64,000 nt of DNA from the human T2T-CHM13v2.0 reference genome, Homo sapiens. Each line of letters begins with the position of its first letter. Within the stretch, counting starts at the first letter, position 1. Positions 59,399 through 60,844 of the stretch are shown piece after piece. Made by a program: the position numbers and the translations under genes. The DNA lies in assembly GCF_009914755.1 (NCBI RefSeq), contig NC_060929.1. One strand, written 5' to 3'. The notes below the pieces were generated by a model. It was not told the origin of the DNA. It saw only the letters and a program-made list of their open reading frames with translations, and made no database searches.

Positions 59399-59987
59399 AA
59401 GTTTGTTAGAGGCAAAAGTTCAGTCCCACACCCAGACTTCTAAAAAGCAATGGGCAGGTTAACAAGTGATCTATGTGCTCATTAAAGCATGAGAAGCACA
59501 GCTTTCACCTTTCATCTATTTTCCCACACTTTTACCCCTTTTCCAAGGTGAACGGTTTATAGGTGTGTGCAATCAAATTAGAGCTGCTTTTGTTACCTAA
59601 GAAGCAGTTAATAGAGGAGAGAAATCAGTCAAAAAAACCTGACATCACCTGTCTGGCGAAGGAGCCTAAAAGTGGGTTCAAAACGATGAATTCCCCAAAA
59701 CAGGTTTAAAGTCCTCCTCTCCAATTTACGCTAAAGCTCCAGAAAGCCTCTGAAGTTTGCAATAGGCACTTCCTTTTTCCCTTGCACTTCCTTTCCTCCT
59801 AATAGGTTGAACCAATAAGTGAGACCACGCCATGAAAGCCCAGCCTTCAACCAAGTGGGCCAGCTGAGCTCACCTTCCTTTTCCTACCAGAGGCACTTAT
59901 GTCCCCTGTTTATGCACATGTGGAAATTTACATTCAAATCTGAAAATCGAAAAACACTCATACATTTCAGAATAAAATAAATCTTCT

Positions 59988-59993
59988 TTTATT
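59988..59993 (-). terminator. Poly(A) signal for the CAPSL-like exon
   Basis: Minus-strand AATAAA followed by the GU/U-rich element TGTATGAGTGTTTTTCGATTTT. Confidence 0.6.
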
Positions 59994-60463
59994 TGTATTC
60001 ACCAAAATTAAAATAAATAAGTTCAGGACATTTTACACAGTTAGAGGTTCCTCTAATCCCGGTATTATCACCTTCTGCTATGGAGTTCCAAGACTGTAAA
60101 GTGAAGGTGTGAGGGAGCAGCTACATTTACACCTATAAGAGGAATATCTATAACAACAAGCAGATTGTTTTACCTAGGAGCCACTTCCCAATATCACTTC
60201 ATGGTTTTCTTTCTTCCTTTCTCTCTCTCTCCTTCTTTCCTTCTTCCTTCCTTCATGACTTAAAAATATAATCTCAGGCATTGATAAAAATGAACACATT
60301 CCAGATAATTAAGTAAGATGACCAAAGATCTATTTATCGCTTTTAAAATTCCAGATCCTTTAGGAAATTTAGTTTACACCTAATCCAAATCCATAGCTTG
60401 GAATTCTTTCAAACTTATTCCACTCTGGGAGTCCCTGATTTCCAAAAGAATTAATAGGCAAAA

Positions 60464-60565
60464 TTATAATCTCCAAGATTTTGTCATCATCAAAATGAAA
60501 TAGGCATCGGTGTCAATAGAAGCACTGACACCTGCATAATAATTCAAAAATTCTTCTTTTGAAAC
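60464..60565 (-). CDS. CAPSL: CAPSL-like terminal coding exon (second, diverged copy of the calcyphosine-like C-terminus)
   Basis: Minus strand reads CCTTCTTTCTTTTCTTGCCTTTTTCTTTTCTTCAG|GTT..., translating to [36 protein letters not shown]. This carries the calcyphosine signature [14 protein letters not shown]. Confidence 0.8.
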
Positions 60566-60844
60566 CTGAAGAAAAGAAAAAGGCAAGAAAAGAAAGAAGG
60601 AAATGGTGTCAAAATATGTGAGTTATAGTGGAGCATTTTACATTCTCCAAGATATTTTCTATTGAGTGTCATTTGCCACTGTCAAGCAGGTTCGAGTTAG
60701 GCAAGGAGAGCCTGGCTTGCCTGTCCCTGCTGAGGTGGCTCACTGAGACGGGACATGTGCAAGGGTAGCCAAAGATTCACCTGCTCACTGGCCAGCTACA
60801 GTTCCCTTGTGACCATCACTTTGTACATTAAGATTTCTAGATCT

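What the first reader, a model, noticed from the sequence alone, without database searches (positions are those of the whole stretch)
59965..60625. Intact second copy of the CAPSL terminal exon: candidate duplicated alternative last exon
Seen in sequence: on the minus strand a long polypyrimidine tract and CAG acceptor (60600-60566) open a phase-0 exon encoding [37 protein letters not shown] (60565-60464). A roughly 0.5 kb UTR follows, with AATAAA (59993-59988) and a GU-rich downstream element. It has no ATG and is under 60 aa, so the ORF track misses it. Recalled knowledge: CAPSL is the minus-strand neighbour of IL7R, and its canonical last exon encodes [33 protein letters not shown] and should lie a few kb beyond this window. 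The exon here has the same length (33 aa) and is 24/33 identical, mostly with conservative changes and no indel or premature stop. Inference: an old tandem exon duplication retained under selection, giving CAPSL a mutually exclusive C-terminus (end of the last EF-hand plus terminal helix) and a different 3' UTR. I do not know whether it is already annotated.
Basis: partly seen in the sequence, partly recalled or inferred. Interest (0 to 1): 0.9.

Follow-up and report, generated by a model that had tools for sequence, protein, structure and literature searches.

The report
Ancient alternative last exon of CAPSL
About 8 kb beyond the annotated end of the human cilia gene CAPSL lies an intact second version of its last coding exon, which other vertebrates use as an alternative protein ending but which the supplied human gene table does not list.

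Summary
On the minus strand, a CAG acceptor (60568-60566) behind a 95% pyrimidine tract opens a 33-codon exon, D' (60565-60467, stop 60466-60464). The only AATAAA or ATTAAA in the next 1,964 nt lies at 59993-59988. D' is 24/33 identical to CAPSL residues 176-208.

The canonical exon, D, lies at window 68920-68822, 8.3 kb upstream in transcription. It has the same length, phase and boundary. No other CAPSL exon is duplicated.

The two copies differ at 32/99 nt. Synonymous sites are saturated (19 of 19.5) and non-synonymous sites are not (13 of 79.5). Homology stops at the exon edges.

Public protein sets show the D' ending in 13 other mammalian-type sequences (27-33/33 identical). One is a Canidae model in which CAPSL residues 1-175 are joined to a 33/33 identical D'. 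Platypus isoform X2 also carries a D'-type ending. In 5 of 5 fish isoform pairs the first 175 residues are identical and the endings are one of each type.

D' is therefore the human ortholog of a vertebrate-old, selectively maintained alternative terminal exon of CAPSL. Whether humans use it could not be tested, because no transcript data were available. I found no publication describing it.

The parts
60467..60565 (-). D': the alternative terminal coding exon of CAPSL. It has 33 codons, is in phase 0, and replaces residues 176-208. Its partners lie outside the window, so they cannot be listed as parts. They are canonical exon D (coding 68920-68822, 3' UTR to about 68562, AATAAA at 68663 and 68588) and exon C (74348-74139, donor TTG|GTAAGT, ending on the complete codon Leu175).
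   Evidence: Translation. PDB CAPSL chain 11yj_1A, residues 176-208, 24/33 identical. 33/33 identical to the tail of Canidae model P0155. Positions of D and exon C.
60464..60466 (-). TAA stop codon of D'.
   Evidence: The same end position is kept in all 14 D'-type rows. In 4 of them the row continues with W, which aligns to the human stop in the three rows whose alignment reaches it; this is probably TGA read as Trp by the ORF caller (inference).
60566..60605 (-). 3' splice site: polypyrimidine tract plus the CAG acceptor.
   Evidence: Pyrimidine fraction from -40 to -4 is 0.95, against 0.65 for the canonical exon. An in-frame Q (CAG) precedes the exon in 11 of 11 intron-read-through ORFs from other mammals.
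59970..60463 (-). Predicted 3' UTR of about 0.49 kb. It contains a GA-rich simple repeat near 60200-60260.
   Evidence: Sequence. The end is inferred from the poly(A) signal. No 3'-end data were available.
59988..59993 (-). AATAAA poly(A) signal, followed by a T/GT-rich stretch at roughly 59940-59985.
   Evidence: It is the only AATAAA or ATTAAA in the 1,964 nt after the stop.

Best explanation
D' (60565-60467, minus strand) is the human ortholog of an ancient second terminal coding exon of CAPSL.

Proposed mechanism: CAPSL pre-mRNA can end in either of two homologous last exons, each with its own stop codon and poly(A) signal. If exon C (donor at 74139) splices to the proximal exon D and the transcript is cleaved there, the known 208-residue protein results. 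If polymerase reads through D's poly(A) sites and exon C splices 13.6 kb downstream to the strong D' acceptor, the mRNA encodes a protein of the same length. Residues 1-175 are unchanged and the last 33 residues are replaced. The two tails differ at nine positions: 177, 178, 182, 196, 200, 203, 204, 205 and 207.

Shown here:
- the exon, its signals and its homology;
- that only this exon is duplicated;
- long-term purifying selection;
- that annotated proteins of dog, platypus, birds, amphibians and fishes carry this tail type on a CAPSL body.

Inferred:
- that the human exon is still spliced and translated;
- that the two tails tune CAPSL function differently. CAPSL is reported as the main alpha-tubulin-binding inner protein of the ciliary transition-zone doublet.
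For: 1. Anatomy. D' has an intact 33-codon frame, a CAG acceptor behind a 95% pyrimidine tract, a stop codon and a single downstream AATAAA. Exon C ends in phase 0 with a consensus donor. The canonical D starts at the homologous base after its own CAG.

2. Only the last exon is duplicated. tblastn with full-length CAPSL-like proteins over window 1-104000 finds exons A, B, C, D and D' and nothing else below E of about 0.6. The whole genome holds only D', D and the CAPS exon.

3. Selection.
- D and D' differ at 32/99 nt, split 6/5/21 by codon position. Synonymous differences are 19 of 19.5 sites and non-synonymous 13 of 79.5. The binomial p is 9e-7.
- DNA homology is confined to 60546-60481 against 68901-68836.
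- Thirteen non-platypus D'-type sequences keep 27-33 of 33 residues without gaps. All their changes are conservative and fall in 8 columns.
- Their flanking intron and UTR translations align to the human flanks only weakly, with gaps and stops.
- If human and dog had diverged neutrally by 0.1 substitutions per site or more, 33/33 identity would have p of 4e-4 or less.

4. Use as a CAPSL C-terminus elsewhere.
- Canidae UniProt model P0155, residues 227-434, aligns end to end with CAPSL chain 11yj_1A and carries the D' tail.
- Platypus 'calcyphosin-like protein isoform X2' ends in a D'-type tail.
- In 5 of 5 same-gene fish isoform pairs, the upstream residues are 175/175 identical and the two tails are one of each type.

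5. Age. A starred clade (96/90) of 20 tails holds human D together with one tail from each fish pair. Human D' lies outside it, with Canidae, rhinoceros, platypus and Gambusia (95/88). A duplication confined to mammals is disfavoured (AU p 0.029).
Against: - No human transcript, junction, 3'-end or peptide evidence could be consulted.
- The supplied RefSeq table for this assembly ends CAPSL at 68562, so no RefSeq human model uses D'.
- Among placental mammals, the only gene model found that joins CAPSL exons to D' is one Ensembl/UniProt Canidae entry. It has an untidy 226-residue N-terminal extension and a wrong name (UGT3A2).
- The other placental D'-type rows are ORF calls that read through the intron, so they show conservation, not splicing. 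They are also ascertained as open frames.
- The tail tree rests on 33 columns. 23 of its 40 inner branches are unresolved, and the AU group was named after the tree had been seen.
- The isoform models of other species are automated predictions.
- The human sequence alone cannot exclude a loss of use within roughly the last 30 My.
Confidence: 0.8

Rival explanations
1. A recently retired exon. D' is the ancestral alternative terminal exon and works in other vertebrates, but in humans or apes it is no longer spliced. It looks intact only because too little time has passed for it to decay.
For: The supplied RefSeq table has no human model reaching D'. CAPSL is absent from the held supplementary tables of two catalogues of human tandem-duplicated exon substitutions. 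With about 80 non-synonymous sites, zero changes is still plausible for up to a few tens of My of neutrality. That estimate is my own, using a recalled primate substitution rate.
Against: The human tail is 33/33 identical to the Canidae tail and to two other rows. The acceptor, the polypyrimidine tract, the stop and the poly(A) signal are all intact. Nothing in the sequence points to decay.
Confidence: 0.15
2. The last recognisable exon of a dead tandem CAPSL paralog, or of a separate unannotated gene, and not an alternative exon of CAPSL itself.
For: A rhinoceros ab initio model (P0025) joins D' to non-CAPSL upstream pieces. One of these aligns to human 63488-63432.
Against: No second copy of exons A-C exists anywhere in window 1-104000. 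A dead gene would not keep one exon under strong purifying selection. Dog, platypus, bird and fish models join this tail type to the CAPSL body.
Confidence: 0.03
3. A chance open frame, or a processed-pseudogene fragment.
For: The frame is short (33 codons) and has no ATG. Pfam gives no significant hit on the 33 residues alone.
Against: Homology starts exactly at a splice acceptor, not inside a continuous cDNA copy. The match to CAPSL has E 9.5e-12. The substitution pattern is strongly non-neutral. The exon is collinear with orthologous flanks in other mammals.
Confidence: 0.01

Closest known systems
Canonical terminal coding exon of human CAPSL (residues 176-208; PDB 11yj chain 1A, 'Calcyphosin-like protein')
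   Same: Same gene strand. Same length of 33 codons, same phase 0 and the same start after a CAG acceptor. 24/33 residues are identical, and each exon has its own stop and poly(A) signal.
   Different: D' lies 8.3 kb further downstream. Nine residues differ. Synonymous sites are saturated. GC3 is 0.30 against 0.70. The polypyrimidine tract is much stronger (0.95 against 0.65). The flanks share no homology.
Predicted CAPSL / capslb isoforms of other vertebrates that carry the D'-type tail: Canidae UniProt A0A8I3MVM6, platypus isoform X2, kiwi, emu, ruff and shearwater models, amphibian X2 isoforms, and fish capslb X1/X2 pairs
   Same: A CAPSL body of 175 residues followed by a tail of the same length and type. 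The Canidae tail is 33/33 identical to human D', and the platypus tail is 27/33.
   Different: These are automated models in other species. The supplied annotation has no human counterpart. The Canidae entry is misnamed and is extended at its N-terminus.
Tandem duplicated exon substitution events, i.e. homologous mutually exclusive exons, as catalogued for human genes in PMC8373072 and PMC9741552. I saw their search listings and abstracts, and searched the one supplementary file held as text for each paper.
   Same: Two homologous exons of equal length and frame sit in tandem in one gene. Both are conserved over hundreds of millions of years, and they give isoforms that differ only in the homologous segment.
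   Different: Here the two exons are terminal. The choice is therefore coupled to cleavage and polyadenylation (alternative last exons), not to the splicing of internal exons. CAPSL does not occur in the held supplements of either paper.
Terminal exon of CAPS (calcyphosine, chromosome 19; PDB 3e3r)
   Same: The same C-terminal motif, and the same exon boundary after a CAG.
   Different: It is a separate paralogous gene. It is 55% identical to D' over residues 3-33 and has no second copy of its own.

Membership tests
CAPSL terminal coding exon (calcyphosine-family C-terminal segment) | Significant sequence homology to CAPSL residues 176-208 | tested here: met
   phmmer against PDB: 11yj_1A residues 176-208, E 9.5e-12, full length, no gaps.
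CAPSL terminal coding exon (calcyphosine-family C-terminal segment) | Same exon boundary, phase and length as the canonical exon, and compatible with the exon C donor | tested here: met
   Both exons start right after a CAG and have 33 codons plus a stop. Exon C ends on a full codon before GTAAGT at 74139.
CAPSL terminal coding exon (calcyphosine-family C-terminal segment) | Joined to CAPSL exons in transcripts or protein models | tested here: inconclusive
   Met in models of other species: Canidae P0155, platypus X2, birds and fishes. No human transcript data were available. The supplied RefSeq table has no such human model.
Tandem duplicated exon substitution (homologous alternative exons) | Two homologous exons in tandem in one gene, with equal length and frame | tested here: met
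   D is at 68920-68822 and D' at 60565-60467, on the same strand and 8.3 kb apart. Only this exon is duplicated.
Tandem duplicated exon substitution (homologous alternative exons) | Mutually exclusive use, giving isoforms identical outside the substituted segment | tested here: inconclusive
   5 of 5 same-gene fish isoform pairs have 175/175 identical upstream residues and different tails. A sixth pair examined, Erpetoichthys, is 128/175 identical upstream, so it represents two genes. Not testable for human with these tools.
Tandem duplicated exon substitution (homologous alternative exons) | Both copies conserved under purifying selection | tested here: met
   Synonymous differences 19 of 19.5 sites against non-synonymous 13 of 79.5. 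13 non-platypus D'-type rows are 27-33/33 identical, against weakly alignable flanks.
Alternative last exon with its own 3' end | Own stop codon and poly(A) signal downstream of the proximal terminal exon | tested here: met
   TAA at 60466-60464 and AATAAA at 59993-59988. D has its own AATAAA at 68663 and 68588.
Alternative last exon with its own 3' end | Observed cleavage and polyadenylation at the distal site | not testable with these tools
   No 3'-end sequencing or EST data were available.
Pseudo-exon or processed pseudogene fragment | Disabling mutations, a neutral substitution pattern, or loss of splice signals | tested here: not met
   No stop or indel. Differences by codon position are 6/5/21. 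The acceptor is intact. Homology begins at the acceptor.
EF-hand protein (Pfam EF-hand families) | EF-hand domains in the protein that carries the D'-type tail | tested here: met
   P0165 and P0155 each match EF-hand_7, EF-hand_1, EF-hand_6, EF-hand_5 and EF-hand_8 above their cut-offs. The best-scoring stretches lie in residues 43-105 of P0165, not in the tail. The tail alone matches no Pfam family.

The most novel reading that the evidence does not exclude
Humans make a second, unannotated CAPSL proteoform whose last 33 residues come from D'. This tail type has coexisted with the canonical type since before the split of ray-finned fishes and tetrapods, which implies a distinct and indispensable function. 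One possibility is a different mode or site of microtubule-lumen binding, or a different calcium response, in a particular cilium type or cell type. Under this reading, variants in D' are currently invisible to clinical interpretation of CAPSL.
Probability: 0.55. Interest if true: 0.7.

Novelty: new member of a known kind. Interest (0 to 1): 0.55.

Why it matters
A 2026 preprint reports CAPSL as the predominant microtubule inner protein of the ciliary transition-zone doublet (10.64898/2026.06.11.731632; passages seen). CAPSL has also been linked to familial exudative vitreoretinopathy and to multiple symmetric lipomatosis (listings and abstracts).

Those studies, and the recombinant protein used for the structure, use the canonical isoform. 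A second C-terminus conserved across vertebrates but missing from the supplied human table would have several consequences:

- Exome designs, variant annotation, antibodies, knock-outs of the 'last exon' and structural models may all miss one natural form of the protein.
- It adds a terminal-exon case to the small set of ancient tandem-duplicated exon substitutions, which are known to be functionally important.
- It shows that strongly conserved coding exons can still be absent from a current human RefSeq annotation.

Tried and rejected
Searches that gave nothing useful:
- Pfam on the 33 residues alone gave nothing significant (DUF3081, E 0.14).
I then used the window's own 52-residue stop-to-stop frame.
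- get_proteins does not accept PDB chain names.

Duplicate exons and flank homology:
- I looked for duplicated copies of CAPSL exons A-C between IL7R and CAPSL, and across window 1-104000. There are none, only noise at E of 0.6 or more. This speaks against a whole-gene duplicate.
- I looked for DNA homology in the flanks of D and D'. There is none, apart from a non-collinear Alu-like repeat (62426-62118 against 68002-67697).

Literature:
- No paper in the held library combines CAPSL with tandem exon duplication, homologous exons, mutually exclusive exons or alternative last exon. All 20 listed papers of 505 have 0 occurrences of CAPSL.
- No paper holds both CAPSL and PhyloCSF.
- No paper contains a 22-residue string of D'.
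- The phrases 'CAPSL isoform', 'CAPSL transcript', 'CAPSL splice' and 'isoforms of CAPSL' occur in none. 'capslb' occurs in 2 papers that appear unrelated.
- CAPSL is absent from the one held supplementary file each of PMC8373072 and PMC9741552.

The supplements of PMC9013439 and PMC5740500, and the CAPSL-tubulin interface section of the preprint, were therefore not read.
- Structure prediction was not accepting jobs. The secondary structure and surface exposure of the nine differing residues were therefore not modelled.

Limits of the protein libraries:
- Placental D' isoforms may be hidden. The libraries are clustered at 50% and 90% identity, so a D' isoform would fall into the same cluster as the canonical protein.

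Full report
**1. The observation**

A tract at 60605-60569 is 95% pyrimidine and ends in CAG at 60568-60566.
- After it comes an open frame of 33 codons at 60565-60467, followed by TAA at 60466-60464.
- Downstream, AATAAA lies at 59993-59988, 470 nt after the stop. It is the only AATAAA or ATTAAA in the 1,964 nt scanned. A T/GT-rich stretch follows it.
- The stop-to-stop frame is 52 codons (60622-60464). Its first 19 codons are simply the translated polypyrimidine tract.

**2. What it resembles**

- A search of the 33 residues against all PDB chains returned 15 distinct sequences at E of 10 or less. The best is 11yj chain 1A, 'Calcyphosin-like protein', 208 residues. It matches residues 176-208 end to end at E 9.5e-12. 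Calcyphosin (3e3r) follows at E 1.5e-6.
- Pfam on the 33 residues alone found nothing significant.

**3. Where the canonical exon is**

- The window's genome is held. A six-frame search of it with the peptide gave exactly three matches: the exon itself, a 73% match at chr5:36,152,822-36,152,920 (window 68822-68920, minus strand), and a 55% match on chromosome 19, which is CAPS.
- I fetched window 64001-104000. The canonical exon D starts right after its own CAG and has 33 codons plus TAA. It carries AATAAA at 68663 and 68588. This fits the annotated gene end at 68562 in the hub table.
- D' is therefore not the canonical exon. It lies 8.3 kb further along the direction of transcription.

**4. 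Only the last exon is duplicated**

- tblastn with five full-length CAPSL-like proteins against window 1-104000 recovered four coding blocks: about 85354-85256, 74821-74639, 74348-74139 and 68920-68822, plus D'. I inspected the rows for two of the five queries, P0101 and P0130. Every other hit in those rows had E of 0.6 or more.
- Exon C ends on a complete codon (Leu175) before GTAAGT at 74139. It can therefore join D or D' equally well. Joining it to D' gives exactly the junction seen in the dog model (section 7 below).

**5. Substitution pattern between D and D'**

- The two exons differ at 32 of 99 nt, split 6, 5 and 21 by codon position.
- By Nei-Gojobori counting, there are 19 synonymous differences on 19.5 synonymous sites and 13 non-synonymous differences on 79.5 sites. 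An excess of synonymous change this large has binomial p 9e-7.
- When 32 random substitutions were placed on D, 0 of 200,000 trials kept an open frame with at least 24/33 identical residues.
- GC3 is 0.30 in D' and 0.70 in D.
- blastn of 3.6 kb around each exon finds collinear homology only at 60546-60481 against 68901-68836 (79% over 66 nt). The one other strong hit is a non-collinear Alu-like repeat.
- Saturated silent sites, unalignable flanks and a conserved protein together mean the duplication is very old, and that both copies have been constrained as coding sequence for most of that time.

**6. Orthologs in other mammals**

- An exhaustive HMMER search of 1.84 billion representative proteins with the 33 residues gave 417 hits at E of 0.001 or less, of which 150 were listed.
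- I extracted tails from the 74 listed hits of 300 residues or fewer. Seven of them are 30-33/33 identical to D' but only 23-24/33 identical to D.
- Two word-indexed searches with the 52-residue frame added more (27 hits among 31 candidates; 4 hits among 4 candidates).
- In total there are 14 D'-type rows, including platypus. The 13 non-platypus rows are 27-33/33 identical to human D', without gaps. They vary in 8 columns, always conservatively (S/T, K/E, E/D, L/V, I/V, T/R/M, K/N, R/K).
- Eleven of the 13 are ORF calls that read through the upstream intron. In all 11, the residue before the exon is Q (the CAG acceptor in frame), preceded by F/L/S/P-rich translation of a pyrimidine tract.
- Aligned back to the human window, their flanks are collinear with the human intron and 3' UTR, but only weakly similar, with gaps and human stops. 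The exon aligns ungapped at 82-100% (27-33 of 33).
- Four rows continue with W after the last Leu. This W aligns to the human TAA in the three rows whose alignment reaches it (P0036, P0152, P0154). I infer a TGA stop read as Trp by the ORF caller.
- Caveat: ORF-derived rows are open frames by construction, so they cannot reveal species in which the exon is broken.

**7. Evidence that this tail is a CAPSL C-terminus**

- P0155 is a UniProt entry for Canidae (A0A8I3MVM6), misnamed UGT3A2. Its residues 227-434 align end to end with CAPSL chain 11yj_1A (E 1e-129). They differ at 7 positions in the first 175 residues and then carry a tail 33/33 identical to human D'.
- P0165, 'calcyphosin-like protein isoform X2' of platypus, is 208 residues long. 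It ends in a D'-type tail that is 27/33 identical to D' and 22/33 to D.
- A search with the last 59 residues of the platypus protein gave 281 hits among 283 candidates, of which 120 were listed. From these and the earlier hits I picked 51 rows by name, to cover the vertebrate classes and same-species isoform pairs, and printed their tails.
- Two tail types recur. Type 1 is like human D and type 2 is like human D'.

| Tail type | Found in |
|---|---|
| Type 1 | mammals, four passerines, tuatara, two frogs, coelacanth, gar, elephant shark, lamprey |
| Type 2 | kiwi, emu, ruff, shearwater, six amphibians, lungfish, a sawshark |

- Five ray-finned fishes (Betta, Sander lucioperca, Anguilla anguilla, Gouania and Amia ocellicauda) each have one isoform of each type.
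- In these 5 of 5 pairs the 175 upstream residues are identical and only the tails differ (23-28/33 identical). A sixth pair, Erpetoichthys, is 128/175 identical upstream and so represents two genes.
- A 208-residue type 2 fish protein comes from a contig of 1,198 nt (P0204). I take that to be spliced mRNA (inference).

**8. Tree of the tails**

- I built a maximum-likelihood tree of 46 tails: 43 of the 51 rows plus human D, D' and CAPS.
- Left out as duplicates or redundant were Sander vitreus, Mus caroli, Cricetulus, Sciurus, Scleropages X2, Dromaius and two unnamed rows.
- The tree has only 33 columns, and 23 of 40 inner branches are unresolved.
- It does recover a starred clade (96/90) of 20 rows holding human D and every type 1 tail, including one member of each fish pair.
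- Human D' lies outside that clade, in a starred group (95/88) with Canidae, rhinoceros, platypus and Gambusia.
- Forcing all eight mammalian tails into one clade costs 15.3 log-likelihood units (AU p 0.029). The group was named after the tree had been seen.
- The simplest reading is a single duplication before the split of ray-finned fishes and tetrapods. From recall, that split was more than 400 My ago. The elephant-shark and sawshark tails suggest the duplication may predate it.
- With CAPS as outgroup, type 2 tails sit nearer the root. D' may therefore be the more ancestral form.

**9. Mechanism**

- Shown: there are two homologous terminal exons, each with a stop and a poly(A) signal. One phase-0 donor is shared. 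The distal acceptor is much stronger (pyrimidine fraction 0.95 against 0.65).
- Inferred: isoform choice is a competition between two events. One is splicing to D followed by cleavage there. The other is read-through of D's poly(A) sites followed by splicing across 13.6 kb to D'.
- The protein product would keep residues 1-175 and exchange the last 33. The nine differing positions are 177, 178, 182, 196, 200, 203, 204, 205 and 207.
- EF-hand families are detected in proteins carrying this tail, though the best-scoring stretches lie upstream of the tail.
- A 2026 preprint (passages seen) reports CAPSL as the main microtubule inner protein of the ciliary transition-zone doublet, bound 1:1 to alpha-tubulin. 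That study used the canonical isoform.
- I could not read the interface section because paper reading closed, and I could not model the tail. What the alternative tail changes remains open.

**10. What is known**

- The hub's RefSeq table ends CAPSL at 68562, so no RefSeq human model includes D'. From memory, public coordinates for the Ensembl gene have the same span. I did not test this.
- Five literature searches found nothing on CAPSL isoforms or this exon.
- CAPSL is absent from the held supplements of two catalogues of human tandem-duplicated exon substitutions. Other supplements could not be opened.
- The tail type is, however, present in automated annotations of many other vertebrates.
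- I therefore class the finding as a new (human, undescribed) member of a known kind, not as a new kind.

**11. Verdict**

- Confidence is about 0.8 that D' is a conserved, selectively maintained alternative terminal exon of CAPSL.
- There is about a 0.15 chance that it has recently fallen out of use in the human lineage.
- Human transcript, 3'-end, peptide and population-variant data would settle the question.

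Noticed in passing
window 60467-60565 versus the canonical exon at 68822-68920 (outside the window): The two paralogous exons lie 8 kb apart in the same AT-rich region but have very different third-position composition: GC3 is 0.70 in canonical D and 0.30 in D'. 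D' matches the local background. The high GC3 of D is unexplained. It might reflect splicing-enhancer or expression-linked constraints.
   Followed up: no
window 63432-63488 (-): The N-terminal piece of a rhinoceros ab initio protein that ends in D' (P0025) aligns to a human frame here (13 of 19 residues identical, E 3e-4). It is probably just alignable orthologous intron picked up by a gene predictor, but it could be a conserved element about 2.9 kb upstream of D'.
   Followed up: partly
window 56165-57723: A GC-rich block that NCBI masks as repeats carries very long stop-free frames on both strands, for example 226 codons at 57035-57715 (-) and 125 codons at 57314-57691 (+). It looks like a repeat or VNTR-type element, not a gene. 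I did not examine it.
   Followed up: no
window 60200-60260 (-) and 60840-61150: There is a GA/GGAA-rich simple repeat inside the predicted D' 3' UTR, and an AT-rich tandem-like repeat about 300-600 nt upstream of the D' acceptor. Parts of the sequence upstream of the acceptor are still alignable to the intron-read-through ORFs of other mammals (60840-60932 and 61113-61190).
   Followed up: no
PDB hits: The D/D' C-terminal motif is shared with several ciliary microtubule inner proteins of protists (RIB22, RIB35, RIB57, and the DMIP14/18/20/21/23 chains). The calcyphosine-type module may therefore be a widespread lumen-binding unit.
   Followed up: no
protein P0156 (emu CAPSL model): This 166-residue model joins exon B directly to the type 2 tail and skips exon C. 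It is either a predicted exon-skipping isoform or a model error.
   Followed up: no
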